Assembly: GCA_028713575.1 (NCBI GenBank)
Contig: JAQTOB010000001.1
Coordinates: 27,619-91,618, forward strand
Reading direction: 5' to 3'
Length of the DNA: 64,000 nt
Origin: Patescibacteria group bacterium
GTDB lineage: Bacteria > Patescibacteriota > Patescibacteriia > UBA2591 > UBA6264
A program made the position numbers and the translations under genes. Under the pieces are notes generated by a model. The model was not told the DNA's origin. It did no database searches and saw only the letters and a list, made by a program, of their open reading frames with translations. Below, one piece after another: positions 2,585 to 62,661 of this stretch (positions are counted from its first letter, which is position 1; every line of letters starts with the position of its first letter).

Positions 2585-3880
2585 ATGTATATTTCACTTA
2601 AAAACCTTCAAAAACATTTAAATAAAATTGTGACCTTAAGGGGATGGATATATAATTTTCGTTCTTCCGGTTCAATTATGTTTTTGCAGCTAAGAGACGG
2701 AACCGGTTTTATTCAGGCAATTTTAAATAAATCAGATATTGATGAAAAAAAATGGATTGAGGCACAAAAAATTAGCTTAGAAACATCTCTTGAATTAACT
2801 GGAAAATTAACCATGCATCCGAAAAATAAAAATGAGTTTGAAGTGCAAATAAAAAATTTTAAAATCTATCAAATCCCTAAAGATGATTATCCGATTAGTA
2901 AAAAAGAACATGGACCTGAATTTTTATTAGATAATCGCCACTTGTGGTTACGTTCCCGTCGTCAATGGGCCATTCAACGTATTCGCGACACCTTAATTCG
3001 CGCCACTTACGAATGGATGCATAATAATAATTTTACAAAAATTGATTCTCCCATCCTAACGCCGTCCGCCTGCGAAGGAACAACCACGCTTTTTGGTGTA
3101 AAATACTTTGATTTGGGTAAGGCCTACTTATCCCAATCTGGCCAATTATATTTAGAAGCGGCTATTGCCTCTTGGGGAAAAGTTTATGATTTCGGTCCGG
3201 TTTTCCGCGCGGAAAAATCAAAAACCAGAAGACACTTAACCGAATTCTGGATGATGGACGCAGAAATGGCCTTTATAGAACATGAAGAAAATTTAAAAAT
3301 TCAGGAAAATCTTATTTCCTTTATGATTAAAAAAGTTTTAGTTGAAAATCAGGAAGAACTAAAAATTTTGGAACGCGACCCCGAACCCTTGAAAAAAATC
3401 AAACCACCCTTTTATCGGATTACTCATCAAGAAGCAATAAAAAAACTGCAAAAATTAGGCAGTAAAACAAGGGAAACCGAAGATTTAGGCGGAGAAGACG
3501 AAACAATTATAACCAAACAATATGACAAGCCCTTGTTTGTTGAAAAATATCCCGCTCAGGTAAAATCTTTTTATATGAAACGCAACCCCAAAAATCCTTC
3601 CCTTGTTCTTTGCGCCGACTTGCTGGCGCCAGAGGGTTATGGTGAAATCATTGGCGGCTCGCAAAGAGAAGACAATTATGACGAATTAATAAAAAGAATT
3701 AAAGAAAATAATTTACCTTTGGAAAACTTTAAATGGTATTTAGACCTACGCCGTTATGGGAGTATTCCTCACTCCGGGTTCGGTTTTGGATTAGAACGAA
3801 TTGTCGCCTGGCTTTGCGGCTTGACGCATGTTCGGGAAACCATTCCCTTTCCCCGACTAATTAACAGGCTAAATCCTTAA
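2585..3880 (+). CDS. asnS: asparaginyl-tRNA synthetase (class II)
   Basis: 431 aa with an N-terminal OB fold and class II motifs. Motif 3 reads HSGFGFGLERIVAWLCGLTHVRETIPFPR, which is typical of AsnRS. Confidence 0.85.
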   Translation: MYISLKNLQKHLNKIVTLRGWIYNFRSSGSIMFLQLRDGTGFIQAILNKSDIDEKKWIEAQKISLETSLELTGKLTMHPKNKNEFEVQIKNFKIYQIPKDDYPISKKEHGPEFLLDNRHLWLRSRRQWAIQRIRDTLIRATYEWMHNNNFTKIDSPILTPSACEGTTTLFGVKYFDLGKAYLSQSGQLYLEAAIASWGKVYDFGPVFRAEKSKTRRHLTEFWMMDAEMAFIEHEENLKIQENLISFMIKKVLVENQEELKILERDPEPLKKIKPPFYRITHQEAIKKLQKLGSKTRETEDLGGEDETIITKQYDKPLFVEKYPAQVKSFYMKRNPKNPSLVLCADLLAPEGYGEIIGGSQREDNYDELIKRIKENNLPLENFKWYLDLRRYGSIPHSGFGFGLERIVAWLCGLTHVRETIPFPRLINRLNP

Positions 3881-4217: not shown

Positions 4218-5618
4218 ATGGAAAAAATAAAAAACATTCAAATAACGGATAATGTTGGAAAAAATGTTACTCTCCACGGATGGGTAAATGATTGTAAAAA
4301 TTTAGGGCAAATTACCTTTATTTATTTACGTGACCGTTCTGGTTTGGCACAAATCGTTTTCGCCCCCTCCGAACTTGACGATGAATCGAAAGAAGCGGTA
4401 AAAACCCTTCGGCCGGAATTCGTGATTGAAGTTAAAGGTACGGTCAACTCAAGGCCAAAAAATCAAATCAATAAAAATTTTCCTACCGGCACGGTAGAAG
4501 TCCTAGCTAAAAAACTTATTATTCTTAACCGGGCAAAAACACCTCCCTTTGAAATCAACTCCGAAAAAAAACAAATCAGCGAAAAATTACGACTGAAATA
4601 CCGTTACCTTGATTTGCGAAGAGAAAAAATAAAAAATAATTTGATTCTGCGCCACAAAATAATCAAATTTATTCGCGATTATTTAGACAAGGAAGAATTT
4701 TTAGAAATAGAAACACCGATTCTTACCAAAGGCACGCCAGAAGGAGCGCGTGAATTTATTGTTCCTTCCCGTCTTTACCCGGGAAAATTTTATGTTCTCC
4801 CGCAAGCGCCCCAACAATTTAAACAACTTTTAATGGTGGCAGGCTTAGAAAAATATTTTCAAATTGCCCGCTGTTTTCGCGATGAAGATACGCGTGGTGA
4901 TCGGCAACCTGAATTCACCCAATTGGATATGGAAATGAGTTTTATAGAAAAAGAAGACATTATGGAATTGATTGAAAAATTAATTATTTCTTTAGTAAAA
5001 ACCGTGGTCCCAAATAAAAAAATTACTACCTATCCTTTTCCTCGCCTAAATTACGATGAAATAATAAAAAAAGACAAGACCGACAAGCCCGATTTAAGAA
5101 AAAATCAAAAAGATGAAAATGAATTAGCCTTTTGTTTTATAACTAATTTTCCTCTTTTTGAATATTCAAAAAACGAAAAAAAAATTGTTTCTGTTCATCA
5201 CCCCTTTACTTCCCCCCAGCTAGAATACCTTCCTCTGTTAAAAAAAGAACCATTGAAAGTTAAATCTCAGCAATACGACCTTGTTTGTAATGGTTTTGAA
5301 ATAGGGGGCGGATCAATCAGAATTCACCAAAAAAATATCCAGAAACAAATATTTGAAATCCTTAAAATTAAAAAAGAAGAAATTAAAAGGCGCTTCGGTC
5401 ATTTGCTTGAAGCCTTTGAATATGGTGCCCCGCCACACGGCGGCATTGCTCTCGGACTTGACCGCCTGATGATGATTTTGGCCAATGAACCGAACATTCG
5501 CGAAGTCATTCCTTTCGCCAAAACTGCCGATGCTAAAGATTTAATGATGGGTGCGCCAAGCAATTTGCCAAAAGAACAAATAGAACAAGTAAACATTGAA
5601 ATTAAAAAGAAAAAATAA
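4218..5618 (+). CDS. aspS: aspartyl-tRNA synthetase, compact form without the bacterial GAD insertion domain
   Basis: Motifs FRDEDTRGDRQPEFTQLDMEMSF and GAPPHGGIALGLDRLMMIL. At 466 aa it is about 120 aa shorter than a typical bacterial AspRS. Confidence 0.85.
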   Translation: MEKIKNIQITDNVGKNVTLHGWVNDCKNLGQITFIYLRDRSGLAQIVFAPSELDDESKEAVKTLRPEFVIEVKGTVNSRPKNQINKNFPTGTVEVLAKKLIILNRAKTPPFEINSEKKQISEKLRLKYRYLDLRREKIKNNLILRHKIIKFIRDYLDKEEFLEIETPILTKGTPEGAREFIVPSRLYPGKFYVLPQAPQQFKQLLMVAGLEKYFQIARCFRDEDTRGDRQPEFTQLDMEMSFIEKEDIMELIEKLIISLVKTVVPNKKITTYPFPRLNYDEIIKKDKTDKPDLRKNQKDENELAFCFITNFPLFEYSKNEKKIVSVHHPFTSPQLEYLPLLKKEPLKVKSQQYDLVCNGFEIGGGSIRIHQKNIQKQIFEILKIKKEEIKRRFGHLLEAFEYGAPPHGGIALGLDRLMMILANEPNIREVIPFAKTADAKDLMMGAPSNLPKEQIEQVNIEIKKKK

Positions 5619-11381: not shown

Positions 11382-11478
11382 TATCGCTAATTAATTAAAT
11401 GATATATTTATTATTTTTCTTTGTCAACTGTGGATTTCCTATCCGATTATGCTATAATACTAACATAAATTATAAACT

Positions 11479-12063: not shown

Positions 12064-12065
12064 GG

Positions 12066-12425: not shown

Positions 12426-12539
12426 TAAGCTCATAAATTTACACATAAATTACCTATTACTTACTTTTATATTTTAGCACATTCCTAAAATATTTCAAGG
12501 TTCGGCATCTTTTTAAAACGCCCTATGTCCAAAAAATAC

Positions 12540-23691: not shown

Positions 23692-24798
23692 ATGAATAAC
23701 AAACAAAAATTTATTATCTTGGGTATTGAGACTTCATGCGACGAAACATCAGCCGCCCTTTTGGAATATAAGAATAATCGTTTCAAAATAATTTCCAATT
23801 TGGTTTCCTCACAGATTCCCATCCACCGAAGATACGGTGGAATCATTCCGGAAATCGCCGCCCGCGCCCATCTTAAAAATATGCCCTTAATAATCAAAAA
23901 AATTAGCCGAGAAATCAACCTAAAAAATATTGATTTAATTGCCGTTACTCGCGGTCCAGGACTAATTACCTCTTTATTAGTTGGCGTGGAAACAGCTAAA
24001 ACTTTGTCTTATCTTTTTGAGAAACCTCTAATTGGCATCAATCATTTAGAGGGGCACCTTGCCGCTAATTGGCTTCCGCCAATTAGCGGAAATCCCAAAT
24101 CCGAAGTCCTAAGCCCGAAACATATATTTCCTGCGGTGAGTTTGATTGTTTCCGGCGGACATACTGAACTCGGCTTAATAAAAAAAATGGGGAAGTATGA
24201 AAGAATTGGCCAAACCAGAGATGACGCGGCCGGCGAATGTTTTGACAAAGTCGCTAAATTGCTCAATCTCGGCTATCCAGGAGGCCCAGCCATTGCCGAG
24301 TATGCCCGTCAATGGAAATCTCAAATTTCAAATACCAAATTCCATATCTCCCTGCCACGACCGATGATAAAATCCAATGATTTTGATTTCAGTTTTTCCG
24401 GTCTCAAAACCGCTGTTCTTTATCTAGTTAAAAAAAATAAGAATAAAATAAAAAATAAAGACTTTATTAAAAATGTCTGTGCTGAAACGCAACAAGCAAT
24501 CATTGACGTTTTAATTTATAAAACCATTAAGGCGGTAAAAAAACATCAGGCCAAAAGCATCTTTCTGTCCGGCGGAGTAGCGGCGAACCGCGAATTAAGG
24601 GAACAACTGCGGGACAGCGTGGAAAAACTGTCCCCGCAACGGAATTTTTTGGTTCCCCCGAACAATCTTTGTACTGATAACGCCGCCATGATTGCCGCCG
24701 CCGGAGTTATAAGATACGGCATGCTTTCGCTGAAACAAAAAAAGGGACTGAAGAACGGGTGGAAAGACGTAAAAATCGATCCAAACCTAAGCCTGTAG
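23692..24798 (+). CDS. tsaD: tRNA N6-adenosine threonylcarbamoyltransferase
   Basis: ILGIETSCDETSAALL...HLEGHL...SGGVAANREL; Kae1/TsaD family. Confidence 0.9.
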   Translation: MNNKQKFIILGIETSCDETSAALLEYKNNRFKIISNLVSSQIPIHRRYGGIIPEIAARAHLKNMPLIIKKISREINLKNIDLIAVTRGPGLITSLLVGVETAKTLSYLFEKPLIGINHLEGHLAANWLPPISGNPKSEVLSPKHIFPAVSLIVSGGHTELGLIKKMGKYERIGQTRDDAAGECFDKVAKLLNLGYPGGPAIAEYARQWKSQISNTKFHISLPRPMIKSNDFDFSFSGLKTAVLYLVKKNKNKIKNKDFIKNVCAETQQAIIDVLIYKTIKAVKKHQAKSIFLSGGVAANRELREQLRDSVEKLSPQRNFLVPPNNLCTDNAAMIAAAGVIRYGMLSLKQKKGLKNGWKDVKIDPNLSL

Positions 24799-24813
24799 TC
24801 TTAATACGTAAAT

Positions 24814-24847
24814 AAAAACTGAGAAACAAATTCTCAGTTTTTATTTT
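24814..24847. terminator. bidirectional intrinsic terminator between convergent tsaD and the ornithine-cyclodeaminase-family gene
   Basis: Hairpin CTGAGAA-ACAAA-TTCTCAG with an A-run on its 5' side and a T-run (TTTTTATTTT) on its 3' side. Confidence 0.55.
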
Positions 24848-24873
24848 AACTCTATCTCAAATCTATATCTTAT

Positions 24874-25884
24874 CTAATTGATTAAATCCACTCTTTTACC
24901 AATTTTTTTCTTTAGGGCCATCCTGTAAACTAGCTCCGCAGTGAACAGGTCCTGAATCGCCAGGCCGGTGGAGTCAAAAACCGTGACTTCCCTATTATTT
25001 TTTCTTCCCACTGATTTTCCGCTAACCACCTGTCCTAAAGAGGCAAAAATATCCTTTTCCCTGATTATTCCCCTTTTTAAAGGCACGTTTATCTCTCCGG
25101 AATGACTGGCCTGTGCCCAGTCGTCGATGAAAATCTTGCCTTTTTTCAGAATCATGGGATCCAGTTCTTCTTTTCCCTGGGCATCGGCGCCGATGGCGTT
25201 GATGTGAGTTCCGGGTTTAATCCATTCTTTCCTGATAATCGGTTTTTCCGAAGGCGTAACTGTCACTAAAATATCCTGCTCGGCCGCCTCTTTCAAAGAA
25301 ACGCCCTGAACCTTCAGTTTTAAGGGCTTCAGTTGATTGGCCAACCAATTTATCTTTTTCTGGTTGATGTCGGAAACAAAAATTCTCTTTATCTTCCTGA
25401 CTTGGCAAATGGCGGCGATCTGGAACAGGGCTTGGACTCCAGCTCCTGCTACGCCCAAGGTTTCAGCGTTTTTGCGAGACAGATATTTCGTCGCCACACC
25501 GCCAGCGGCGCCGGTTCGCATGCCGGTGATGTAAGTGCCATCCAGTAAAGCGACAGGCCGGCCGGTTTTGGCATCATTTAAAATAATAGCGGCCATGACT
25601 GTGGCTAATCCCTTTTTCGGATTTTCCGGATGGACGTTAACTATTTTTGTCCCCGCCATGTCCAGTTCTGGAGCGAAAGAAGGCATAACCCGCAAATCAC
25701 CGTGATATTTTTTAAAATATAAATAATTTTTTGCCGGCATCTGGACTTTCTGGCGACCGTAACTGTCAAAGGCTCTTTCTACTTTCCCGATCACCTTTCT
25801 AATTTCCTCTAAAGGAATGATTTTTTTAACTTGATTCTGATTTAAAATCAAAATTTTTTTTCTCATAAAAACGAAGTTAGTCAA
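24874..25884 (-). CDS. ornithine cyclodeaminase / mu-crystallin family NAD(P)-dependent enzyme
   Basis: Rossmann GVAGAGVQA; length and conserved blocks fit the OCD or archaeal-type alanine dehydrogenase family. The GC content looks higher than that of its neighbours. Confidence 0.65.
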   Translation of the reverse strand: MTNFVFMRKKILILNQNQVKKIIPLEEIRKVIGKVERAFDSYGRQKVQMPAKNYLYFKKYHGDLRVMPSFAPELDMAGTKIVNVHPENPKKGLATVMAAIILNDAKTGRPVALLDGTYITGMRTGAAGGVATKYLSRKNAETLGVAGAGVQALFQIAAICQVRKIKRIFVSDINQKKINWLANQLKPLKLKVQGVSLKEAAEQDILVTVTPSEKPIIRKEWIKPGTHINAIGADAQGKEELDPMILKKGKIFIDDWAQASHSGEINVPLKRGIIREKDIFASLGQVVSGKSVGRKNNREVTVFDSTGLAIQDLFTAELVYRMALKKKIGKRVDLIN

Positions 25885-25891
25885 TTAATAA

Positions 25892-26275
25892 TCACTTTTT
25901 AAGAGAATCTCTTATCTCTTTGAGAATTTCTATTTCCTCTGGCGGCTTAACGGGTTCTTTTTCTTCTTTCTTTTTCAGTTTGCCAAAGTAATGAACGGCA
26001 ATGAAAATAGAAAAAGCAATGATTATAAAATCTATAATCGTATTAATGAAAATTCCGTAATTAATCGTAATTGCCGGAGCCGTTTCTGACGCCTTTTTTA
26101 AAACAAGCATCAAGTTTGAAAAATCAATGCCTCCCAAAAGCAAGCCGATTGGCGGCATAATAACGTCCGTGACCAGGGAGCTAACTATTTTTCCAAAGGC
26201 GCCACCAATAATTACGCCGACTGCCATATCAATCACATTTCCTTTTAAAGCAAATTTTTTAAATTCTTGTAACAT
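25892..26275 (-). CDS. mscL: large-conductance mechanosensitive channel
   Basis: [40 protein letters not shown]. Confidence 0.85.
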
Positions 26276-29928: not shown

Positions 29929-32532
29929 GTGAAAACAATGGATAAACAATACGAGCCAAAAAATTGCGAAACGAAAATTTACGAACTCTGGGAAAAGAGC
30001 GGATTTTTTAATCCAGACCGACTACCGGGCAAAAGAAGAAAAAAATATTCTATTTCCATCCCTCCGCCCAACATCACCGGTTCCCTGCATATGGGACACG
30101 CCCTGAATAACACAATTCAGGACATTTTAACCCGCTACTACCGCCTGCGGGGCAAAAAAACTCTTTGGTTGCCGGGAATTGATCATGCCGGCATTGCCAC
30201 CCAAAACGTGGTAGAAAAGAAAATCTCTAAAGAAGGATTGACTCGCCATCAACTCGGCCGAGATAAATTTATAGAAAGAGTCTGGCAGTGGAAGGAAAAA
30301 TATGGCAACCTAATCTTAGAACAATTAAAAAAACTTGGTTGTTCCTGTGATTGGTCTCGGAGTAGATTCACCTTGGACAAAGAATACGAACAGGCCGTAC
30401 AAACCGCTTTTATCAATTATTACAAAAAAGGCTACATCTACCGGGGTCCTCGGATCGTCAACTGGTGTCCCCGTTGCGCCACGGCTATCTCCGACATTGA
30501 AGTGAAATACCAAGAAGAAAAAGGTGCCTTGTGGTATATTAAATACCCGTTGCTTGAAAATTCCAAATTCCAATTTCCAAATTCCAAACAATATCTAAAT
30601 TCAAAACCTAAAATCCAAAAATTTATTACGGTAGCGACTACTCGACCAGAAACAATGCTGGGAGATGCGGCCGTGGCCGTGAATCCCAAGGAAGAAAGAT
30701 ATAAAAAGTTAGTCGGCCAAAAAGTTATCTTGCCAATAATGAACCGCGAGATTCCTATTGTCGCCCATCGTTTAGTTGATCTTAATTTTGGCACTGGCGC
30801 CTTAAAAATCACGCCAGCTCATGATAAAACCGACTGGCAGATTGGCAAAGAAAATAATCTAGAAATAATCAATGTTATTGGTCCTGACGGAAAAATGTCA
30901 AAAGAGGCGGGAAAATATGAAGGCCTCTCAACTCTTGAGGCCAGAAAAAAAATCATCGCCGAACTGGAAATCTTGGGTCTTTTGGAAAAAACCGAAGAAT
31001 ACGAGCATCAAATCTCCCTGTGTGATCGCTGTCATACTCCAGTCGAACCGCAAATTTCTACCCAATGGTTCGTTCAAATGGAAAAATTAGCCCAACCGGC
31101 GATTAAAGCGGTTAAAAACAATAAAATAAAAATTATTCCCGAACGATATAAAAAGGTATATCTTGATTGGTTAAATAACATTGAAGATTGGTGCATTTCT
31201 CGCCAGCTCTGGTGGGGACACCGTTTGCCAATTTGGCTCTGCCAAACAGCAAACAAAATTAAAAATCCCTGCCTGTCCGGCAGGCAGGAAAAATTAAAAA
31301 TCAAAAACATTAATAACGATTATGTTGTTTCGGCGACTCGACCAAAAAAATGCCCATTCTGCGGACAATGCGAGATGAAACAATCGGAGGACGTATTAGA
31401 CACCTGGTTTTCTTCTGCTCTTTGGCCATTCGCTACTTTGGGCTGGCCAATCGCTTGCGCTCAAAATAAAAAATCAAAAATAAAAATTAAAAAATATTGT
31501 AAACCAATTCGCGGTACCGATTTAGACAAATTTTTTCCGACTTCTCTTTTATCCACCGACCGCGGAATCCTTTATCTTTGGGTGGCGAGAATGGTTTTCT
31601 CAAGTTTGGAATTTTTAAAAAAAATACCCTTTAAAACCGTTTACATTCACGCCACTATTCTCAATCCGGAGGGCCGACGAATGAGTAAGTCGCTGGGAAC
31701 GGGCATTGACCCCTTGGGCTTAATTGATAAATACGGCGCCGACGCGGTCCGCCTCGGTCTAATAATCCAAACCAACCGCGACCAGCAGGCCATCCGCTTT
31801 GATGAAAGAACGATTTTGGCGGCCAGAAATTTTGTGAATAAGCTCTGGAACATAAGTCGTTTTATTGAAATTTCAACAAAACAAATCCAAGATTCTAAAT
31901 CAGAAATCCAAAACAAGTCCAAGATTCTAAACTCAAAAATCAAAACATTAACTCTATCGGACAGATGGATACTTAGCCGCTTAAATTCCGTTATTGATTC
32001 AATAACAAAAAAAATCGCCGATTATCAATTCGGCGAAGCGGGGCAAGAACTTTATGAATTTGTTTGGCATGAATTTGCCGATTGGTATTTAGAAATCAGT
32101 AAATTTCAAATGGCGGAAAAAAAATTAAAAAATAACACCATTTATTGTTTAAAATTTATAATTTATAATTTATTAAAACTCCTTCATCCTTTTATTCCTT
32201 TTGTCACTGAAGAAATCAACATTCATCTTAATAATTTGACCATAGAAAAAAATGGGGTTTTGCCAGAGAAAGCAATGGAACAATTTAGTCAGTTATTGAT
32301 AGTGGCAAACTGGTCCGCCGTGAAAAGAAAATACATAAATAAAAAGATTGAATCTCAATTTGAGAAAATAAAAAAAATTGTGGCTGAAATCAGGAACTGG
32401 AAATCAGAACAGAAAATTCCTTTTAATCAGGAAGTGGAATACCAAATTCAAAAAGAAGAAAAAAATCTTTTAATCATTAAAGAGGTAAAAACCCTGGTAG
32501 AACAAATGACCAAAACAAAATTGATTTCTTAA
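29929..32532 (+). CDS. valS: valyl-tRNA synthetase with several low-complexity in-frame insertions
   Basis: HIGH motif (PPPNITGSLHMGHALNN), KMSKS motif (RMSKSLG) and the zinc knuckles of the editing/CP1 region. Insertions lie at about 30551..30625, 31261..31320, 31465..31500 and 31875..31950. Confidence 0.9.
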   Translation: MKTMDKQYEPKNCETKIYELWEKSGFFNPDRLPGKRRKKYSISIPPPNITGSLHMGHALNNTIQDILTRYYRLRGKKTLWLPGIDHAGIATQNVVEKKISKEGLTRHQLGRDKFIERVWQWKEKYGNLILEQLKKLGCSCDWSRSRFTLDKEYEQAVQTAFINYYKKGYIYRGPRIVNWCPRCATAISDIEVKYQEEKGALWYIKYPLLENSKFQFPNSKQYLNSKPKIQKFITVATTRPETMLGDAAVAVNPKEERYKKLVGQKVILPIMNREIPIVAHRLVDLNFGTGALKITPAHDKTDWQIGKENNLEIINVIGPDGKMSKEAGKYEGLSTLEARKKIIAELEILGLLEKTEEYEHQISLCDRCHTPVEPQISTQWFVQMEKLAQPAIKAVKNNKIKIIPERYKKVYLDWLNNIEDWCISRQLWWGHRLPIWLCQTANKIKNPCLSGRQEKLKIKNINNDYVVSATRPKKCPFCGQCEMKQSEDVLDTWFSSALWPFATLGWPIACAQNKKSKIKIKKYCKPIRGTDLDKFFPTSLLSTDRGILYLWVARMVFSSLEFLKKIPFKTVYIHATILNPEGRRMSKSLGTGIDPLGLIDKYGADAVRLGLIIQTNRDQQAIRFDERTILAARNFVNKLWNISRFIEISTKQIQDSKSEIQNKSKILNSKIKTLTLSDRWILSRLNSVIDSITKKIADYQFGEAGQELYEFVWHEFADWYLEISKFQMAEKKLKNNTIYCLKFIIYNLLKLLHPFIPFVTEEINIHLNNLTIEKNGVLPEKAMEQFSQLLIVANWSAVKRKYINKKIESQFEKIKKIVAEIRNWKSEQKIPFNQEVEYQIQKEEKNLLIIKEVKTLVEQMTKTKLIS
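31268..31288. repeat. GC-rich palindrome CCTGCCTGTCCGGCAGGCAGG embedded in AT-rich repeat flanks, inside valS
   Basis: A second copy (CCTGCCTGCCGGCAGGCAGG) lies intergenically at 52112..52131, with the same caaaat-type flanks. Confidence 0.6.
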
Positions 32533-32589: not shown

Positions 32590-34302
32590 TTATTCCGCTA
32601 CCCTAAAAATCTCTTCTATAGTGGTTGTTCCTTCTAAGGCCTTTAAAATTCCGTCTTGAACCATATTAATCATTCCTTGACTTTGGGCCAATTCTCTCAT
32701 TTTATATTCTGAAAGGTCTCCTCCTAAAATAATTTTTTCAATGCTTGCATCAATAATAAAAACCTCATAAATGCCGATTCTGCCTTTATATCCTAACCCT
32801 TGACATATTTCACAGCCTTTGCCGTGATAAAATTTTAAATCATTGTTAATCTTTATTCCGGAATTCTCGGGGATTTCCGCTAAAATTTTTTTTACTTTTT
32901 CCATGTCTCCCGGCGAAATAACAATCTCTTGCTTACAATTTGGACAAATTTTTCTAACTAATCGTTGTCCAATAACCGCATTAATGGCCGGGGCTAAAAG
33001 ATAAGGCTTAACGCCCATTGATAAAAAACGAGGAATGGCGCCGGCCGCATCATTGGTGTGTAAAGTAGAAACAACCATATGCCCAGTCAAGGCGGCTTGA
33101 ATGGCAATCTCAGCTGTTTCCAAATCTCTGATTTCGCCCACCATCACCACATCTGGGTCTTGACGGAGGATAGAACGAAGCCCTTTGGCAAAAGTATAAT
33201 CTTTTGATTTGTCAACCTGACTTTGATTAATCCCTTTCAAATGATATTCTACCGGGTCTTCTAAGGTAATAATTTTTGTCTCCGGGCTGTTTAATCTATT
33301 TAAAATCGCATATAAAGTAGTCGTTTTCCCTGACCCAGTCGGACCAGTGGTAATCACCATTCCGTTTGGTCTTTCTATCTGCTGTTTTAACTTATTATTG
33401 ATTTCTTCTCTAAATCCCAATTGTTCAAAACTTAAACTAGCAACAGAAGAGCGTAAAAGTCTCATTACTACGCTTTCACCATAAGCCGTGGGAAGACAAG
33501 AAACACGAACATCAACTTTTTCTTCTGTTAAAAAAATGGTGAAACGTCCATCCTGTGGTCGGTCAACTATATTCATTTTCAATCCGGAAATTAATTTAAT
33601 ACGGGAAATGATTTGTGGCCAAAATTTTTTATTAATTTCCGCAACGTCAATTAGAACTCCGTCTATTCTAAATCTAACTTTTATTTCTTCTTCTTCGGCT
33701 TCAATGTGGATGTCTGAAGCCCTTGATTGAATAGAACTGGCTATAATTAAATTAACCAAATCAGTAATTTTCGCATTTTTAATCTCCTGATTTAAATCCT
33801 TAAATGTTTTTATTTTACTTTTAAAAAATTCTACATCTTTAGCGGTAATTTCCACTCCCTTAATGGCTTTACTAATTTTTGGCAAAGTGGCATAACGTTG
33901 ATAAACAAAATTGAAACTATGTTCAGAAATAAGATAAAGTTCTGTTTTCAGGCCATATCCTCCCTCTATTTGTTCCCTGTATTCTGCCAGGGACGGATTA
34001 TCCGGCTGAACGGAAGCCAATTTGGCCGTTTGTTCGGTCCGATAAAAACAAATTAGTTTATATTTTAAAGATTCTTCTTGAGGAATTAAACTTAAGGATT
34101 CCTGCGAAACCGGGAAATCAACCAAATTGATATATGATATGCCTATTTGTCTGGCTTGAGCGGAAATTTTTTCTTCTTTGTCCTTTAATTCAATATCAAT
34201 TAATTTTTTTTGTAATTTTTCTTGGTCTTCCGACGAACTAATGTTTGGCTTTATATTTGTTGCCTTTTGACTTTGTTTTAATAAGTCATTTATATTTAAC
34301 AT
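32590..34302 (-). CDS. pilB: type IV pilus / type II secretion assembly ATPase (PilB/GspE family)
   Basis: Walker A GPTGSGKTTTLYAIL, Asp and His boxes, and a C-terminal tetracysteine (CPNCKQE...CEICQGLGY). Confidence 0.85.
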   Translation of the reverse strand: MLNINDLLKQSQKATNIKPNISSSEDQEKLQKKLIDIELKDKEEKISAQARQIGISYINLVDFPVSQESLSLIPQEESLKYKLICFYRTEQTAKLASVQPDNPSLAEYREQIEGGYGLKTELYLISEHSFNFVYQRYATLPKISKAIKGVEITAKDVEFFKSKIKTFKDLNQEIKNAKITDLVNLIIASSIQSRASDIHIEAEEEEIKVRFRIDGVLIDVAEINKKFWPQIISRIKLISGLKMNIVDRPQDGRFTIFLTEEKVDVRVSCLPTAYGESVVMRLLRSSVASLSFEQLGFREEINNKLKQQIERPNGMVITTGPTGSGKTTTLYAILNRLNSPETKIITLEDPVEYHLKGINQSQVDKSKDYTFAKGLRSILRQDPDVVMVGEIRDLETAEIAIQAALTGHMVVSTLHTNDAAGAIPRFLSMGVKPYLLAPAINAVIGQRLVRKICPNCKQEIVISPGDMEKVKKILAEIPENSGIKINNDLKFYHGKGCEICQGLGYKGRIGIYEVFIIDASIEKIILGGDLSEYKMRELAQSQGMINMVQDGILKALEGTTTIEEIFRVAE

Positions 34303-34304: not shown

Positions 34305-35171
34305 TTATTCAATTATTGATTTTGCTTCGTTAATCAATTTTATTATTTTTAATTCGCTAATTTTTGTTTTTCTCTTTAAGGTTTCGTTTTTAATCATTAA
34401 CAAATCTTTACAAAAAATTATTTTTTGGAAAAAAAGTTTTTCTTTTGTCTGCCGATCCAATGACCTTAGAATGGTAATGGGATATATTTTTTTTTCTTCT
34501 ATTAAACTTTCTAAACTATTTTCTCTTGGATATTGCCACCCCAATAGCCTCATCTTTTTACATTGAGCGTATTGAATGGCCGACTCCGAAAACTTTGTAT
34601 TAGAAATTAACCAAGGGCAATCAAGTCTCTGCCCTTTATTTTCTCGCCAGGCATCATGTAAATCTAAAAATCTTGCCCAAACATATAAAGCCTCTTTTAA
34701 TCCCGAGCGAATACCCGATTTATTGTGATATTTACATTCTACCATAAAAATCTTTCCTTTGCTATGTTCCTGTTGAATTAAAGAATTAATTTCTCTTGAA
34801 GGAGACCTGGCAATAATGTCTACTTCATGTTTGGTACAAATTCCCGAAAGTATGGGAGGAAACCAAGTTTGATAACCATAAGACCTTAAAAGCCTAAGAA
34901 TAAATTCTTCAAAAATAAAACCAGCGGGGCCTAAATCTAAAATTGCCTTTTTTAAATTATATCGCGCCGCTGTAATTGGATTTTTTTGTCTTAATAATTT
35001 TAAAATCAATTTTAAAATCTCCCTGGTTTCCATATTTTCATAAACATGTCGCGTAACTTCATTGGTAATATCATTGGCAAGATTTTGGTCTGCCCCGGCG
35101 CGTAAACAGGTTTTTCTAATTTTTATAGGATTAAATCTAACCCTTTTGCCTGAAGCCTTAATAATATACAT
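34305..35171 (-). CDS. ATP-cone domain fused to an Mrr-like (PD-(D/E)xK) restriction-endonuclease-fold domain
   Basis: N-terminal segment IIKASGKRVRFNPIKIRKTCLRAGADQNLANDITNEV is ATP-cone-like. Downstream, FEEFILRLLRSYGY...HEVDIIAR...IFMVECKYH gives an E/D...ECK triad typical of Mrr_cat. Confidence 0.6.
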   Translation of the reverse strand: MYIIKASGKRVRFNPIKIRKTCLRAGADQNLANDITNEVTRHVYENMETREILKLILKLLRQKNPITAARYNLKKAILDLGPAGFIFEEFILRLLRSYGYQTWFPPILSGICTKHEVDIIARSPSREINSLIQQEHSKGKIFMVECKYHNKSGIRSGLKEALYVWARFLDLHDAWRENKGQRLDCPWLISNTKFSESAIQYAQCKKMRLLGWQYPRENSLESLIEEKKIYPITILRSLDRQTKEKLFFQKIIFCKDLLMIKNETLKRKTKISELKIIKLINEAKSIIE

Positions 35172-35300
35172 AATGGTCGCTTTACTTCAAACCCTAATTT
35201 CTAATTTCTAAACTCTAAATAATATTCTGAATTCTAAATTTAAAAACTAAAATTCAAAATCACTTTTTCCAAATTTCACTTTTTAGAATTTTAGGATTTG
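35172..35300. repeat. AT-rich degenerate 'ctaa(a/t)tt / aaaattcaaaat' repeat tract in the intergenic region downstream of the ATP-cone nuclease gene
   Basis: ctaatttctaatttctaaactctaaataatattctgaattctaaatttaaaaactaaaattcaaaatc; the units are degenerate and there are no unique spacers. Confidence 0.5.
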
Positions 35301-35361
35301 AATGTTTAAATTTGTTTAGGGCCTAGAACTTATGATTTGGGACTTCCGCGCAAAATGCGGT

Positions 35362-36729
35362 TTACTGATTATACAATCTTTGTTTAATCAAATCTACTTC
35401 TTGTTTAATCCGACTGTTTATTTCTATTTCTCTTTTTATTTTTTCATAGGCGTGCATAGCCGTGGTATGGTCGCGATTACCCAATTCCTTCCCAATTAAG
35501 GGAAAAGAAGCTCTTGTTTCTTCTCTCATTAAATACATAGCAACTTGTCGCGGGGCAACCAATTCTCTTTTTCTTGAAGAGCTAATCATTTCATTTAATT
35601 GAATCCCATAAAAATTTGCCACTGTTTCAATTAATTCCTTGTTTTGGATAAAACCTCTTTTTCCATGACTCTCTAAACTGACTAAAATATTTTTTACTAA
35701 AGATAAATCTATTTCTATTTGATGAAACTCTTGGTAAGCGATTAATTTATTAAGAGACCCCTCCAATTCCCTAACATTTCTTTGAACATGAGAAGCTAAA
35801 TATTGAAGTATTTCCTCACTTAAATCACATTTTCTCTCTTGACATTTTACTCTCAGGATAGCTAACCTTGTTTCCATGTCTGGTGGTGTAATGTCAACAA
35901 TCAACCCCCATCCTAGCCGTGAGGTCAAGCGCTCTTCAAGGGCCGGAATGTCCTTGGGCGTACGGTCAGAAGTAATCACTATTTGTCTTCCGTCTTGATA
36001 AAGACTGTTAAAGGTATGAAAAAATTCTTCTTGTGTTCTATCTTTTCCTGCCATAAATTGAATGTCATCAATCAAGAAAACATCTAATTCCCTGTAAAAT
36101 TTTTTAAATTTATCAATTGTTCCGTTGCCGATAGCTTGAACAAATTCATTGGTAAATTTTTCCGCATTAGTATAAAGAATTTTTGCCTTGGGAATTTTTT
36201 CTAAAACAGCGTGTCCTATTGCCTGAAGAAGATGAGTTTTGCCCAGTCCCACGCCCCCATAAATAAAAAGCGGGTTATATTTTTTCCCCGGATTTTTAAC
36301 CACTGCTTGGCAAGCGGCATAAGCCAATTCTGACCCCTTACCAACAACAAAATTTTTAAAAGTATAACAAATATTTAATCCATAACCATTAGTTTTTGCC
36401 ATCCCTTTTTCTGATATTTTTTCCAAATCAATTACTATTGGTTTTTGTTCTTTAGCGGGAAAAACTTGTTCAACATTATAAAAAACTTTTTTTACCCTAT
36501 TGTCTGTCGCTCCTTGTAGGGCTTCAAGAATGGCGTGATGATATTTCTTTTCCAGCCAATTTTTGGAAAAATTATTAGGAACATTAACAATAACCGTTTC
36601 TCCGCTATCTTTCAATTCCGATATACTGGTATTTTGAAACCAAGTTTTAAAATTGGCCTTGGAAATTGATAATTCTAATTCCGATAAAACAATGTCCCAA
36701 AGTTGTTTTTTATTATTTATTTCCATCAT
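35362..36729 (-). CDS. dnaA: chromosomal replication initiator protein DnaA
   Basis: AAA+ Walker A GGVGLGKTHLLQAIG, the box VII / sensor region and the C-terminal DNA-binding domain. Confidence 0.9.
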   Translation of the reverse strand: MMEINNKKQLWDIVLSELELSISKANFKTWFQNTSISELKDSGETVIVNVPNNFSKNWLEKKYHHAILEALQGATDNRVKKVFYNVEQVFPAKEQKPIVIDLEKISEKGMAKTNGYGLNICYTFKNFVVGKGSELAYAACQAVVKNPGKKYNPLFIYGGVGLGKTHLLQAIGHAVLEKIPKAKILYTNAEKFTNEFVQAIGNGTIDKFKKFYRELDVFLIDDIQFMAGKDRTQEEFFHTFNSLYQDGRQIVITSDRTPKDIPALEERLTSRLGWGLIVDITPPDMETRLAILRVKCQERKCDLSEEILQYLASHVQRNVRELEGSLNKLIAYQEFHQIEIDLSLVKNILVSLESHGKRGFIQNKELIETVANFYGIQLNEMISSSRKRELVAPRQVAMYLMREETRASFPLIGKELGNRDHTTAMHAYEKIKREIEINSRIKQEVDLIKQRLYNQ

Positions 36730-36815
36730 AATAAAATCTAATTAATTTATAGAATAATAATAACATTAATCGCTAAAAAAACAAATTATAAAAGGTTAAT
36801 AAATTGGGGAAATTA

Positions 36816-36849
36816 TGTGGATAAATTTAATTCATCATTTTTATCCATA
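36816..36849. promoter_or_regulatory. pair of DnaA boxes upstream of dnaA: a perfect TGTGGATAA (the reverse complement of TTATCCACA) and TTATCCATA (one mismatch), in opposite orientation
   Basis: Direct sequence match to the DnaA box consensus in AT-rich sequence 90 to 120 bp upstream of the dnaA start codon. Confidence 0.5.
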
Positions 36850-36919
36850 GACTTATCGCTTGCAACATTACCAAAATGTGCTAAAATATTACCAGACTAA
36901 AATGTTAAAATGAATTTTT

Positions 36920-59885: not shown

Positions 59886-61625
59886 TTATATAGGCCTTGG
59901 GGGTAAAATTTTAATTACTCCTTTTTTCTTTTTTTTGAAAACCGTATGACAGACATCATGAATATTCTTTTCGTTGTTTAAAAATTCTTGATAAACTTTC
60001 TTAATTATCGGATTCTCGTGCGCCAATCTTATTTCTTTTTTTCGGTCAATTTGATACAATCCTTCAGCGCGATTTTTTCTAACCATTGCATCAATGGGTA
60101 AAGGCTGGCCTCCGCCACCAACACATCCTCCGGGACAAGCCATTACTTCAAGATAATCATAAAAATGGAGATTTTTCTTAAGTTTCATTAAAATTTTACT
60201 TACCTCTCCTGTTCCATTAATAACTGCCACTTTTAAAATTTTTTTACCGATTTTAATTTTTGCTTCTTTTACTCCTTTCATTCCCCGCACTTGTTTAAAT
60301 TCTACTTTCATTCTTTTTTTACCTGTTATTATTTTCTGAACCGTTCTTAAGGCAGATTCCATAACTCCACCAGTCGCTCCATAAATCACCCCGGCGCCAG
60401 AAGGAATACCAAAAGGCATATCTAATTCAACTGGCTTAATTCTTTTAAAATCAATTTTTCTTTTTTTGAATAAATGTATTAATTCCCTGGTAGTTAAAAC
60501 ATAATCAACGGGCTTTAAGCCGTTTATTTTGAGCTCGTCTCTGGTAATCTCGTATTTTTTAGCAATACAGGGCATAATGGAAACAATGATAATATTTTTT
60601 GGGTCTATTTTTTGTTTTTCTGCCCAATAAGTTTTAATCAGTCCTCCTAAAATAATATGAGGAGAACGAACCGTGGTTAAGCAAGGAATAAATTCGGGAA
60701 AATAAAACTCAATAAATTTAACCCAAGCCGGGCAACAAGAAGTAAATATGGGTAATTTTCTTTTCTTCCGCAAAGCTTCAACTAATTCATTCGCTTCTTC
60801 TATGGTGGTAAAATCCGCGCCTACACTCACGTCAAAAACATTCTTTGCTCCTAATTTTTTTATACCCGCCACTAATTTATTGGTAACAATATTGCCGACC
60901 GGCAAGCCAAACCCTTCGCCAATGCTTGTTCTAATGGAGGGAGCAAATTGTACAACTATTGTTTTACTTTTATCCAAAAATGGTTTTTCCACATCTTCAA
61001 ATTCACCCACGCCTTCAAAACTCCCGGCCGGACAATGAACAAGGCATTGTCCGCAATAAATGCAGTCTTTATTTTTATCCCGACTGGGAATAATCCTTGT
61101 TTCTAAAAATTTTTTTTCTAATTTAAGAAACCCTACGCCCTGATTTTGACAAATTTCCACACAGTTACGGCAATCAATACATTTTGCGCTTTCAAAAATA
61201 AAAGCCGGCCCGATTTGATATATTGGATAATCTTTTTTTCTATCCGGAAAACGATTTATTTTTATTTTATATTTCTTGGCCAACTCTAAAAGTTGACATT
61301 GATAAGACCAAACGCAATCGTGACATTCTTCCGCGTGCTGAGCGAAAAGAAGTTCTAAATTAATTTTTCGCGCTCTTTCAATTTCCGGAGAATCAGTAAT
61401 AATTTTCATTTTGGGTTGCGCTTTGAGCGAACAGGCCGTCAATAACTCTTTTTTGTTTTTTTCTTTTACCAAACAAAGCCGGCAACTTTCCAGTGGTTCC
61501 AGGTCCGAATGATAACATAAAGCGGGAATCTCTATCTTATTTTCCTTTGCAATTTCTAAAATTGTCTGGTTAGCCTGTGCCCAATAATTCTTCCCGTTAA
61601 TATTTATTTTGAATTTTTTAACCAT
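59886..61625 (-). CDS. hydA: [FeFe]-hydrogenase catalytic subunit with N-terminal 2Fe-2S and 4Fe-4S ferredoxin domains
   Basis: H-cluster motifs L1 (TSCCPAW), L2 (MPCIAKKYE) and L3 (EVMACPGGCVGGGGQP), plus CxxCxxCxxxCP ferredoxin motifs. Confidence 0.9.
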   Translation of the reverse strand: MVKKFKININGKNYWAQANQTILEIAKENKIEIPALCYHSDLEPLESCRLCLVKEKNKKELLTACSLKAQPKMKIITDSPEIERARKINLELLFAQHAEECHDCVWSYQCQLLELAKKYKIKINRFPDRKKDYPIYQIGPAFIFESAKCIDCRNCVEICQNQGVGFLKLEKKFLETRIIPSRDKNKDCIYCGQCLVHCPAGSFEGVGEFEDVEKPFLDKSKTIVVQFAPSIRTSIGEGFGLPVGNIVTNKLVAGIKKLGAKNVFDVSVGADFTTIEEANELVEALRKKRKLPIFTSCCPAWVKFIEFYFPEFIPCLTTVRSPHIILGGLIKTYWAEKQKIDPKNIIIVSIMPCIAKKYEITRDELKINGLKPVDYVLTTRELIHLFKKRKIDFKRIKPVELDMPFGIPSGAGVIYGATGGVMESALRTVQKIITGKKRMKVEFKQVRGMKGVKEAKIKIGKKILKVAVINGTGEVSKILMKLKKNLHFYDYLEVMACPGGCVGGGGQPLPIDAMVRKNRAEGLYQIDRKKEIRLAHENPIIKKVYQEFLNNEKNIHDVCHTVFKKKKKGVIKILPPRPI

Positions 61626-62661
61626 TGATAATTTTTTTTATTAAACTTTTAAAAGGCAAACTTATGTTTTTGCCCAATGGGCAAAAACTTGTTTTTTCAA
61701 GAATAAAGACCAAATCATTAAAAATCTTATTATCAAATTTACTTGGAGTTAAAATTTCTTTGAGACGATAGACTCCTTCGCGACAACTCATACATTTGTC
61801 ACAATTCTCTTGACGGAAAAAATCAATCCATTTGTTCATTAAAATAAAAGGGTCTGTTTTATTAAAAGAATAAACAATAATCCCTCCCAGTCCTCTTGTT
61901 TTTTGTTTTAATTCATTTTCTAATAATATCTCCCCCGTTGTCCCTCCGACTTGAACAAAAAATTTAAAGCGGGGCCAATTTCCAGTCATTTTTAAAATCG
62001 TTTCTATGGTCAAATCCTCTGACAATTCATAAACACCAGAATTTTTAATTTCTCCGCCTAATGAATAAAATCTTGTTTTTTTATATCTCCCGTCAACAAT
62101 TTGAGGGACGAAATAAAACGTTTCTATGTTGTTAATTAAGGTTGGTAAATTAAAAAGTCCGTCAGTCGTTGGGTATGGGGGCTTTTTCCGCGGCTCTAAA
62201 CTTTTGCCTTCAATTGCCCTGATTAAAACCGTCTCTTCTCCACTGATATATCCGCCGGGTTTTTTGAATAATTTTGTGGAAAGTTTTCTGCGTTTAATTA
62301 TTTTTTCTAATAATTGTTTATATTTTTGAAAATAATCTTTCCGCAAATAAATATAAGATTCCTTACTTTTAATAACTTTAAGGGCAATTTCTATGCCCTT
62401 AATAACTTCTTCTGGATAATTTCTTAGAATAAATCCATCTTTAAAAATATTCGGGTCTCCTTCAGCTGCATTACAAATTACATATTTTTTTGTTCCGGGG
62501 GCGTTTTTAACCATCTCCCATTTTAAACCAGTAAGAAAACCAGAGCCGCTACGACCCCTTAATCCTGATTTTTTTATTTTTTCAATTATATCCAACATAA
62601 ATTGTTTTTTGTTTCCGTAATACATATTAAAAATAATACAAAAAAAATAGGATAAGGTCAA
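61618..62661 (-). CDS. compact NuoF-like NAD(P)H-binding flavoprotein/FeS subunit, the probable hydrogenase diaphorase partner
   Basis: GLRGRSGSGFLTGLKW (FMN/NADH-site motif), CNAAEGDPNIFKDGFIL and a C-terminal 4Fe-4S (CDKCMSCREG...SFCPLG). It overlaps hydA by 8 nt. Confidence 0.8.
   Translation of the reverse strand: MTLSYFFCIIFNMYYGNKKQFMLDIIEKIKKSGLRGRSGSGFLTGLKWEMVKNAPGTKKYVICNAAEGDPNIFKDGFILRNYPEEVIKGIEIALKVIKSKESYIYLRKDYFQKYKQLLEKIIKRRKLSTKLFKKPGGYISGEETVLIRAIEGKSLEPRKKPPYPTTDGLFNLPTLINNIETFYFVPQIVDGRYKKTRFYSLGGEIKNSGVYELSEDLTIETILKMTGNWPRFKFFVQVGGTTGEILLENELKQKTRGLGGIIVYSFNKTDPFILMNKWIDFFRQENCDKCMSCREGVYRLKEILTPSKFDNKIFNDLVFILEKTSFCPLGKNISLPFKSLIKKIING

What the first reader, a model, noticed from the sequence alone, without database searches (positions are those of the whole stretch)
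34305..35171. ATP-cone domain fused to an Mrr-like restriction-endonuclease fold, next to dnaA
The N-terminal ~90 aa resemble the ATP-cone (the allosteric ATP/dATP-sensing module of NrdR and ribonucleotide reductases). The central region has a PD-(D/E)xK-type triad (HEVDIIAR...MVECKYH) typical of Mrr-cat nucleases. By inference, this is a nuclease whose activity could be gated by nucleotide levels. Such a protein is a plausible single-gene defence or DNA-surveillance factor and is not a commonly annotated architecture. It sits between the orphan pilB and dnaA.
Basis: inference. Interest (0 to 1): 0.55.

Follow-up and report, generated by a model that had tools for sequence, protein, structure and literature searches.

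The report
ATP-cone-gated DNA nuclease beside dnaA
This gene encodes a typical member of a widespread but untested protein family that joins an ATP/dATP-sensing module to a DNA-cutting enzyme and a DNA-binding tail; its gene neighbours point to nucleotide economy rather than anti-virus defence.

Summary

E88, E116, D118, E145 and K147 are invariant in 128 representatives sharing 31-48% identity. The ATP-cone residues K5, G8 and K17 are conserved in at least 90% of them.

The family has about 570-1,700 clusters at 50% identity and occurs in at least 591 species genomes, across CPR bacteria, many archaea, Bacteroidota and others. Its length is nearly constant. It is absent from the phage and viral collections searched.

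A defence role is not supported: there is no PADLOC hit and no recurrent defence neighbours. In this CPR clade the gene lies in a conserved dnaA-X-pilB-like arrangement. Elsewhere it precedes beta-CASP nuclease, AMP/thymidine-phosphorylase-family and PRPP-synthetase genes, or sits beside RNR and thioredoxin genes.

Best reading, by inference: an adenine-nucleotide-gated DNA nuclease tied to the nucleotide/dNTP economy. No biochemistry exists for any member.

The parts
34305..35171 (-). Whole gene 'X': 288-aa protein with ATP-cone, PD-(D/E)xK nuclease and (HhH)2 domains (stop codon 34305-34307)
   Evidence: ORF; Pfam; identical database protein P0001; AF2 model with pLDDT 91.8
34938..35171 (-). 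ATP-cone domain (aa 1-78). K5, G8, K17, T49, Y71 and K74 are conserved; V11 and N46 deviate from the family consensus
34506..34937 (-). Invariant linker LGPxGFxFE (aa 80-88) followed by the PD-(D/E)xK nuclease core (aa 79-222)
34908..34910 (-). Codon of E88, the helix-alpha1 glutamate of the PD-(D/E)xK site
   Evidence: Invariant in 55/55 and 128/128 homologues
34818..34829 (-). Codons of H115-E116-V117-D118, the metal-binding Asp motif
   Evidence: E116 and D118 are invariant in 128/128 and H115 is present in 118/128. D118 aligns with AF1548 D38
34731..34739 (-). Codons of E145-C146-K147, the (D/E)xK motif
   Evidence: E145 and K147 are invariant in 128/128. They align with AF1548 E51/K53
34308..34505 (-). 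C-terminal AF1548-like_C domain (aa 223-288), an (HhH)2-type fold presumed to bind DNA without sequence specificity
35172..35361 (-). 190-nt AT-rich spacer between dnaA and X, carrying short repeats. It may hold X's own promoter and is not conserved in relatives
   Evidence: Sequence; weak promoter-like match at 35190..35161; gap lengths in relatives
35362..36729 (-). dnaA, the upstream gene of the conserved dnaA-X-pilB arrangement
   Evidence: Pfam DnaA_N, Bac_DnaA and Bac_DnaA_C; synteny
32590..34302 (-). PilB/GspE-family (T2SSE) ATPase. Its start lies 2 nt after X's stop, so the two are probably co-transcribed
   Evidence: PF00437 at 423 bits. NCBIfam GspE and PilB at about 510 bits, below the equivalog cut-offs. 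Synteny

Best explanation
X is an ordinary member of the AF1548-like family. This is a compact three-domain enzyme: an N-terminal ATP-cone, joined through an invariant LGPxGFxFE linker to a PD-(D/E)xK (Mrr_cat-type) nuclease core, followed by an (HhH)2 DNA-binding tail.

Shown here: the three folds; invariance of the catalytic set E88/E116/D118/E145/K147; family-wide conservation of the ATP-cone lysines; a constant architecture across bacteria and archaea; and a non-defence genomic context.

Inferred: it is a Mg2+-dependent DNA endonuclease held on the DNA backbone, without sequence specificity, by the (HhH)2 tail. Its activity would be switched by adenine nucleotides (ATP against dATP or ADP) bound to the ATP-cone. 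The switch most likely works through nucleotide-dependent changes in oligomeric state, as in RNRs and NrdR. The last helix of the cone runs directly into the helix that carries the catalytic E88.

Physiological role, also inferred: coupling DNA or nucleic-acid breakdown to the cell's nucleotide or energy state, that is, turnover or salvage that feeds nucleotide pools. In this CPR lineage the gene is probably co-transcribed with dnaA and a PilB-like ATPase, which could place its action at replication and/or on imported DNA.
For: Domains: all three exceed Pfam's curated cut-offs. The model is confident and rigid (pLDDT 91.8, pTM 0.85).

Catalytic residues are invariant in 128 cluster representatives sharing 31-48% identity. 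K5, G8 and K17 are conserved in at least 90% of them, E11 in 80%, and T/S49, Y/F71 and K/R74 in about 100%.

The family architecture and length are constant, at 265-295 aa.

Context: dnaA-X-T2SSE synteny is kept down to about 50% identity of X, with gaps of 2-20 nt. A tight operon X / beta-CASP MBL / archaeal-type thymidine or AMP phosphorylase family / ribose-phosphate diphosphokinase occurs in Bacteroidota and on a Criblamydia plasmid and a Pontibacter plasmid. The last three genes of that operon are induced by microoxia in Bradyrhizobium (PMC6515984). A bona fide AMP phosphorylase lies next to X in a Bathyarchaeia genome. LOG-family nucleotide nucleosidase genes lie upstream of X in two CPR loci, L010 and L013. 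NrdD/NrdG/class II RNR or TrxR-Trx-Trx genes lie next to X in DPANN archaea.

Background: ATP-cones act through nucleotide-dependent oligomerisation in RNRs and NrdR (bioRxiv 10.1101/2025.03.28.645925; PMC4390871).
Against: No member of the family, AF1548 included, has been assayed. Nuclease activity, substrate (DNA or RNA; double-stranded, single-stranded or branched) and ligand are all inferred.

The gene neighbourhoods differ between lineages and no partner is universal. The nucleotide-metabolism theme rests on perhaps 20-25 of about 85 loci, and many of those are phylogenetically related.

The window protein has V at position 11, where 80% of the family has the Glu that, from my own knowledge of RNR ATP-cones, contacts the adenine. 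It also has N46 in place of G. Its ATP-cone score is modest at 32 bits.

AF1548 itself lacks the ATP-cone, so the nuclease module can work without it.

The dnaA/pilB synteny may simply be inherited gene order within one CPR order.
Confidence: 0.5

Rival explanations
1. Structure-specific repair or replication nuclease. The pairing of a nuclease core with an (HhH)2 tail parallels XPF/Mus81/Hef. On this view X would cut stalled forks, flaps or junctions, with the ATP-cone reporting dNTP or ATP status, meaning replication stress. That would explain co-transcription with dnaA.
Confidence: 0.2
2. Single-gene anti-phage defence nuclease (Type IV-restriction-like or abortive infection). The ATP-cone would sense the nucleotide-pool disturbance caused by infection and unleash non-specific DNA cleavage.
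For: Its nearest Pfam family is Mrr_cat. Its structural neighbours include the modification-dependent enzymes AspBHI and MspJI and the cyclic-nucleotide-gated defence nucleases Can2, Card1, NucC and Cap4. The phyletic pattern is patchy, with 45-50% identity between bacterial and archaeal members, suggesting horizontal transfer. Two copies are plasmid-borne.
Against: No PADLOC model matches it. Among 139 immediate neighbours, no defence system recurs: at most 4 weak Csa3 or QueC cross-hits, 2 Cas4-like hits and 1 PDC-S02 hit. No methyltransferase or defence-island context appears in the clustering. In this lineage it is fixed in a housekeeping block, syntenic across relatives down to about 50% identity. 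It lacks the modification-reading domain of Mrr. Conservation is unusually high and the architecture unusually constant for an arms-race gene. The two plasmid copies sit inside metabolic operons.
Confidence: 0.12
3. Non-catalytic, nucleotide-sensing DNA-binding regulator, a functional analogue of NrdR for archaea and CPR. The nuclease fold and the (HhH)2 tail would serve only to bind DNA and repress nucleotide-metabolism genes.
For: ATP-cone plus a DNA-binding module is the NrdR logic, and NrdR is exclusive to bacteria, whereas this family is common in archaea. The gene lies next to RNR and thioredoxin genes in DPANN archaea, and at the head of operons in Bacteroidota.
Against: The complete catalytic set (E88, E116, D118, E145, K147) is invariant in 128/128 divergent homologues. 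That is hard to explain without catalysis. (HhH)2 domains bind DNA without sequence specificity (established knowledge). No conserved operator motif was sought or seen.
Confidence: 0.08

Closest known systems
AF1548 of Archaeoglobus fulgidus (PDB 1Y88; Pfam AF1548-like_C; COG1787/Mrr_cat group 50 of Steczkiewicz et al. 2012)
   Different: AF1548 has no ATP-cone. It is a structural-genomics protein with only a predicted function, so membership says nothing about activity.
ATP-cone regulators: the RNR activity site (NrdA, NrdD, NrdB of Leeuwenhoekiella) and the repressor NrdR
   Different: The output domain is a nuclease, not a reductase or a Zn-ribbon. The second basic residue of the usual K-R pair is Ala or Ser across the family. 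This protein also has V11 and N46. Ligand binding is untested.
Mrr and other Type IV / modification-dependent restriction enzymes (Mrr_cat PF04471; AspBHI, MspJI)
   Different: It has no N-terminal modification-reading DNA-binding domain, no defence context and no PADLOC hit. It carries an ATP-cone and an (HhH)2 tail instead.
Ligand-gated PD-(D/E)xK nucleases of CRISPR/CBASS signalling (Can2, Card1, NucC, Cap4)
   Different: The sensor is an ATP-cone rather than CARF or SAVED. The presumed ligand is a primary metabolite (ATP/dATP) rather than a dedicated second messenger. The gene is not linked to CRISPR or CBASS genes.
XPF/Mus81/Hef structure-specific endonucleases
   Same: The domain order, nuclease core followed by a tandem helix-hairpin-helix module (established knowledge; (HhH)2 matches).
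   Different: No sequence or top-ranked structural match to the ERCC4 domain. No helicase partner domain.

Membership tests
AF1548-like family (PDB 1Y88; PF22357 plus the nuclease core) | Significant full-length homology to AF1548, covering the nuclease core and the C-terminal domain | tested here: met
PD-(D/E)xK / Mrr_cat (PF04471) | Score above Pfam's gathering threshold | tested here: met
   23.9 bits against 21, E=4.9e-5, aa 87-210. This is a marginal pass, backed by fold matches to many PD-(D/E)xK nucleases
PD-(D/E)xK / Mrr_cat (PF04471) | Catalytic E...D...(D/E)xK residues present and conserved among homologues | tested here: met
   E88, D118, E145 and K147, plus E116, are invariant in 55/55 and 128/128 sequences. 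They align with AF1548 D38/E51/K53
PD-(D/E)xK / Mrr_cat (PF04471) | Metal-dependent phosphodiesterase activity | not testable with these tools
   No biochemical data for any family member were found
Mrr-type Type IV restriction enzyme | N-terminal winged-helix (Mrr_N-type) domain that reads modified DNA, and a defence role | tested here: not met
   The N-terminus is an ATP-cone and no other domain is detected. No PADLOC hit. No defence neighbourhood
ATP-cone (PF03477) | Score above Pfam's gathering threshold, and the ATP-cone fold | tested here: met
ATP-cone (PF03477) | Conservation of nucleotide-contacting residues (the N-terminal Lys, Glu and Lys of the beta-hairpin/helix 1, a Thr in helix 3, and an aromatic plus Lys in helix 4). 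The mapping to RNR residues is from my own knowledge | tested here: inconclusive
   In the family: K5 125/128, E11 102/128, K17 124/128, T/S49 127/128, Y/F71 127/128, K/R74 128/128. The window protein keeps K5, K17, T49, Y71 and K74 but has V11 and N46
ATP-cone (PF03477) | Binding of ATP/dATP and nucleotide-dependent oligomerisation | not testable with these tools
   Needs ITC or DSF and SEC-MALS on purified protein
NrdR | N-terminal Zn-ribbon followed by an ATP-cone; binds NrdR boxes upstream of RNR operons | tested here: not met
   There is no Zn-ribbon and the ATP-cone is N-terminal. The NCBIfam search gave only a sub-threshold NrdD match and no NrdR match
Known anti-phage defence systems (PADLOC-DB v2) | Match to a defence-protein model and/or location among defence genes | tested here: not met
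   0 families at E<=1. Neighbours show no recurrent defence system. The window's neighbours are tsaE, valS, a T2SSE ATPase, dnaA, rpmF, nusB, rnc, smc and mreB
XPF/Mus81 (ERCC4) nucleases | ERCC4 nuclease domain followed by (HhH)2 | tested here: not met

The most novel reading that the evidence does not exclude
The ATP-cone, so far known to control only ribonucleotide reduction (RNRs and NrdR), here controls a nuclease. The family would be a second, degradative arm of dNTP/adenylate homeostasis: DNA, whether the cell's own, damaged or imported (for example through the neighbouring PilB-type machinery in CPR), is cut to feed nucleotide salvage when ATP is high and dATP low, and the enzyme is shut off by dATP. 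This would help explain how CPR bacteria and DPANN archaea, which often lack de novo nucleotide synthesis, balance their nucleotide pools. It would also explain why the gene heads a hypoxia-type operon (beta-CASP nuclease, AMP/thymidine-phosphorylase-like enzyme, PRPP synthetase) in Bacteroidota and Chlamydiota.
Probability: 0.3. Interest if true: 0.72.

Novelty: new variant of a known kind. Interest (0 to 1): 0.52.

Why it matters
If the inference holds, this would be the first enzyme outside ribonucleotide reduction shown to be governed by an ATP-cone. It would also be a nuclease gated by a primary metabolite (ATP/dATP) rather than a dedicated second messenger.

The family is compact, at about 280 aa. 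Its nuclease and tail already have a crystal structure (1Y88). It is present in culturable Bacteroidota (Pontibacter, Cyclobacterium) as well as in CPR and DPANN organisms, so the hypothesis can be tested directly. It bears on how ultra-small symbionts with reduced nucleotide biosynthesis manage their nucleotide pools.

For annotation, it corrects a tempting 'restriction/defence' label: the genomic evidence points to nucleotide economy or DNA metabolism.

Tried and rejected
1. Defence island. I ran PADLOC on the protein and on 139 immediate neighbours from 77 loci, and clustered all neighbours. No recurrent defence genes appeared, so I rejected defence as the main reading.

2. Phage or mobile origin. 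The IMG/VR pattern scan found no relative and INPHARED tblastn found no match. PLSDB gave only two hits, both inside metabolic operons.

3. Universal partner gene. None was found. The neighbourhood differs by lineage.

4. Literature. I searched for AF1548, 1Y88, ATP-cone with nuclease, endonuclease, restriction endonuclease or Patescibacteria, and the NCBI product name. Only fold-based predictions for 1Y88 turned up, and nothing on the ATP-cone fusion.

5. Metal or Fe-S site from the conserved Cys/His residues (C112, H115, C146, H149, C204). Conservation is high but not absolute in the wider family: C146 is replaced by A or V in 20/128 sequences, and C22 is Leu in most. I could not read model coordinates, so this remains unexplained.

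6. oriC between dnaA and X. The 190-nt AT-rich spacer has short repeats, but it is not conserved in relatives, where the gap ranges from an overlap to 211 nt. The only perfect DnaA box lies upstream of dnaA.

7. Other pilus or competence genes in the window that might support a DNA-uptake link. None was found among 30 ORFs scanned.

Full report
**Observation**

It runs from ATG to stop at 34305..35171 on the minus strand and encodes 288 aa. It is a real gene: an identical protein is on record (P0001, 'ATP cone domain-containing protein', Patescibacteria MAG, 517-kb contig), and 1,626 homologues were found at E<=1e-3. The window is a low-GC (about 0.30-0.36) stretch of a CPR/Patescibacteria chromosome full of housekeeping genes.

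**Domain anatomy**

Pfam finds three domains, all above their curated gathering scores:
- ATP-cone PF03477, aa 1-71: 32.3 bits against 25.8.
- Mrr_cat PF04471, aa 87-210: 23.9 bits against 21.
- AF1548-like_C PF22357, aa 230-287: 53.5 bits against 23.9.

Residues 89-287 are homologous to the structural-genomics protein AF1548 (PDB 1Y88, E=8e-34).

- For the middle domain, PD-(D/E)xK nucleases: AspBHI, NucS, FokI, MspJI, LlaBIII, and the cyclic-oligoadenylate-gated Can2 and Card1.
- For the tail, the RAD51-family N-terminal domains, NusA AR2 and the RNA polymerase alpha-CTD. This makes it an (HhH)2-type, sequence-independent DNA-binding module.

A profile of the family's N-terminal 82 residues also hits the ATP-cone of Aquifex NrdA by sequence (E=0.007).

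**Conservation**

In 55 homologues sharing 47-72% identity, and in 128 representatives of 50%-identity clusters sharing 31-48% identity with X, E88, E116, D118, E145 and K147 are invariant. D118, E145 and K147 align with the D38/E51/K53 triad predicted for AF1548.

In the ATP-cone, residue counts across the 128 representatives are:
- K5: 125
- G8: 124
- K17: 124
- E11: 102
- T/S49: 127
- Y/F71: 127
- K/R74: 128

This argues that the family's cone is a working nucleotide pocket. One caveat is specific to the window. X has V11 and N46 where the family has E and G. The Glu corresponds, from my own knowledge of RNR cones, to the residue that reads the adenine. The ligand preference of this particular protein is therefore less certain.

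An invariant linker, LGPxGFxFE (aa 80-88), joins the last cone helix (R70, Y71, K74) directly to the helix that carries catalytic E88. This is a plausible route for allosteric coupling, but that is inference.

**Family size and spread**

An exhaustive HMM search of 1.84 billion cluster representatives finds 574 clusters at E<=1e-30, 1,052 at E<=1e-10 and 1,685 at E<=1e-3. Almost all are 265-295 aa long, so the three-domain architecture is essentially constant. Shorter forms of about 205-220 aa also occur, and three of the four listed (P0080, P0153, P0190) start after the ATP-cone. Some may be fragments.

They include Patescibacteria and Saccharibacteria; many archaea (Aenigmatarchaeota, Altiarchaeota, Hadesarchaea, Methanoperedens, Thaumarchaeota, Bathyarchaeia, Thermofilaceae); Bacteroidota, including the cultured Cyclobacterium lianum and Pontibacter roseus; Actinomycetota; Nitrospira; and Anaerolineales. 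No relative was found in IMG/VR viral contigs or GenBank phages. Only two were found on plasmids.

**Genomic context in this lineage**

X lies 190 nt downstream of dnaA and 2 nt upstream of a PilB/GspE-family ATPase, with all three genes on the minus strand. The following block recurs in relatives whose X protein is 50-66% identical, with gaps between dnaA, X and the ATPase gene of about 2-20 nt in most of them:

smc-rnc-nusB-rpmF <- | -> dnaA-X-T2SSE ATPase | <- valS-tsaE

So in this CPR clade X is a fixed chromosomal gene, probably co-transcribed with dnaA and the ATPase. It is not an island gene.

**Genomic context elsewhere**

I clustered ORFs from 77 loci and scanned the 139 immediate neighbours against Pfam and PADLOC. 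There is no universal partner and no recurrent defence system. The PADLOC maxima were 4 weak Csa3 or QueC cross-hits, 2 Cas4-like hits and 1 PDC-S02 hit. X itself matches no PADLOC model.

What does recur is nucleotide metabolism:
1. In Bacteroidota, on a Pontibacter plasmid and on a Criblamydia (Chlamydiota) plasmid, X heads a tight, partly overlapping operon. The order is X, a beta-CASP MBL nuclease, an archaeal-type thymidine/AMP-phosphorylase-family protein and a ribose-phosphate diphosphokinase. It is often preceded by ArsR and flanked by universal stress proteins and P-type ATPases. In Criblamydia it is flanked by phosphoketolase, glgP and acetate kinase. The MBL / PRPP-synthetase / phosphorylase trio (bll3115-3117) is induced by microoxia in Bradyrhizobium diazoefficiens (PMC6515984).
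2. A bona fide AMP phosphorylase (TIGR03327, 610 bits against a cut-off of 535) lies next to X in a Bathyarchaeia genome.
3. A LOG/TIGR00730-family gene lies immediately upstream in two CPR loci, L010 and L013.
4. In DPANN archaea, X is followed by thioredoxin reductase and two thioredoxins (L088, L009). In other loci it sits beside NrdG, a glutaredoxin-like gene and NrdD plus a class II RNR (L089), or 741 nt from NrdD (L015).
5. In Saccharibacteria it lies between mnmA and a gene cluster resembling uracil-DNA glycosylase and alaS. Those two names are read from the sequences only and were not checked against family models. In three loci it lies next to ftsZ.

**Mechanism**

Shown: the three folds; an intact and invariant PD-(D/E)xK site; a conserved ATP-cone pocket at family level; a rigid inter-domain arrangement in the model; and a non-defence context.

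Established knowledge: ATP-cones bind ATP and dATP and act by changing oligomeric state in RNRs and NrdR. PD-(D/E)xK enzymes are metal-dependent phosphodiesterases. (HhH)2 modules bind the DNA backbone without sequence specificity.

Inferred: X is a DNA endonuclease tethered non-specifically to DNA. Its activity is set by the adenine-nucleotide state through cone-mediated assembly. Its role is to link DNA or nucleic-acid breakdown to the nucleotide or energy economy. The polarity (ATP on, dATP off, by analogy with RNR) is a guess.

I give this composite 0.5. The main rival is a structure-specific replication or repair nuclease reporting dNTP status (0.2), favoured by the dnaA operon and by the XPF-like order of nuclease then (HhH)2. 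Defence (0.12) and a non-catalytic NrdR-like regulator (0.08) are less likely, for the reasons given under each rival.

**Comparison with the known**

By membership, X is an AF1548-like protein (met), carries a Mrr_cat-type PD-(D/E)xK core (met, marginal by score, strong by fold and motif) and an ATP-cone (met by score and fold; ligand untested). It is not an Mrr-type Type IV enzyme, because it has no modification-reading domain and no defence context. It is not NrdR, because it has no Zn-ribbon. It is not XPF/Mus81, because it has no ERCC4 domain.

By way of working, it most resembles ligand-gated PD-(D/E)xK nucleases such as Can2 and Card1, with the RNR/NrdR sensor in place of CARF.

**Novelty**

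The family is catalogued: there are NCBI product names, a Pfam domain and a 2004 crystal structure. In the searchable literature, however, I found only fold-based predictions that 1Y88 is a nuclease (PMC1821046, PMC1874628, PMC3424549). I found nothing on the ATP-cone fusion. The library lacks many subscription-journal papers, including the original ATP-cone description, so earlier mention of the fusion cannot be excluded.

I therefore rate it a new variant of a known kind: a metabolite-gated nuclease that uses a known sensor in a new pairing. The window's copy is an ordinary, slightly cone-divergent member. Interest is 0.52. The gene is a real, conserved and testable unknown, but it is not rare, and every functional statement beyond the folds is inference.

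Noticed in passing
window 35172..35361: A 190-nt AT-rich spacer between dnaA and X holds short direct repeats (TTAGAAAT units; AGTGAAATTT / AGTGATTTTG). In relatives the same gap ranges from an overlap or 2 nt to 211 nt, so the spacer is not conserved. It might hold a promoter or regulatory site specific to this genome.
   Followed up: partly
window 36730..36919 (DnaA boxes at 36816-36824 and 36841-36849): The only perfect DnaA box in the window (TTATCCACA), plus a one-mismatch box 17 nt away, lie in the divergent dnaA/rpmF intergenic region. This is probably the dnaA promoter or oriC region. Window-wide box counts are not above chance (22 against 16.6 expected), and the cumulative GC skew shows no clear turning point.
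   Followed up: partly
L024 8001-15451; L091 (Criblamydia plasmid) 8001-12608; L092 (Pontibacter plasmid) 1972-6597: A four-gene operon is conserved across Bacteroidota and Chlamydiota: ATP-cone nuclease, beta-CASP MBL hydrolase, archaeal-type thymidine/AMP-phosphorylase-family protein and ribose-phosphate diphosphokinase. The last three genes are induced by microoxia in Bradyrhizobium (bll3115-3117). It looks like an uncharacterised nucleic-acid/nucleotide catabolic module for low-oxygen or stress conditions.
   Followed up: partly
L087, L088, L089 (DPANN archaea), about 4300-7500 in each locus: A recurrent archaeal arrangement has DJ-1/PfpI, then DUF498 (PF04430), then X. It continues with thioredoxin reductase and two thioredoxins (L088; also L009), or with NrdG, a glutaredoxin-like gene and NrdD plus a class II RNR (L089). 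The DUF498 gene immediately upstream is unexplained.
   Followed up: partly
window 34305..35171, protein positions 11, 46, 112, 115, 146, 149 and 204: X has V11 and N46 where the family has E and G. Separately, C112, H115, C146, H149 and C204 are conserved in 79-92% of the family and flank the catalytic residues.
   Followed up: partly
window 2585..3880 and 4218..5618 (+): Two adjacent class II aminoacyl-tRNA synthetase genes share the same Pfam families (tRNA-synt_2 plus an OB anticodon domain). They are probably AsnRS/AspRS/LysRS-type paralogues.
   Followed up: no
window 59886..62661 (-): An [FeFe]-hydrogenase large subunit (Fe_hyd_lg_C with a small-subunit domain and ferredoxin-like domains) lies next to a Nuo51/NuoF-like FMN-binding subunit. 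This suggests an electron-bifurcating-type hydrogenase in this CPR genome.
   Followed up: no
window 24001..26000 and 30001..32000: GC content is 0.41-0.42 in these two 2-kb bins, against 0.30-0.36 in the other bins of the window. The second bin is inside valS. The first overlaps ORFs 23692..24798 (TsaD) and 24874..25884.
   Followed up: no
L020 and L023 (same Methanobacteriota MAG): Two copies of the family sit on different contigs of one genome bin. One of them is next to hypF. The family can evidently be duplicated within a genome.
   Followed up: no
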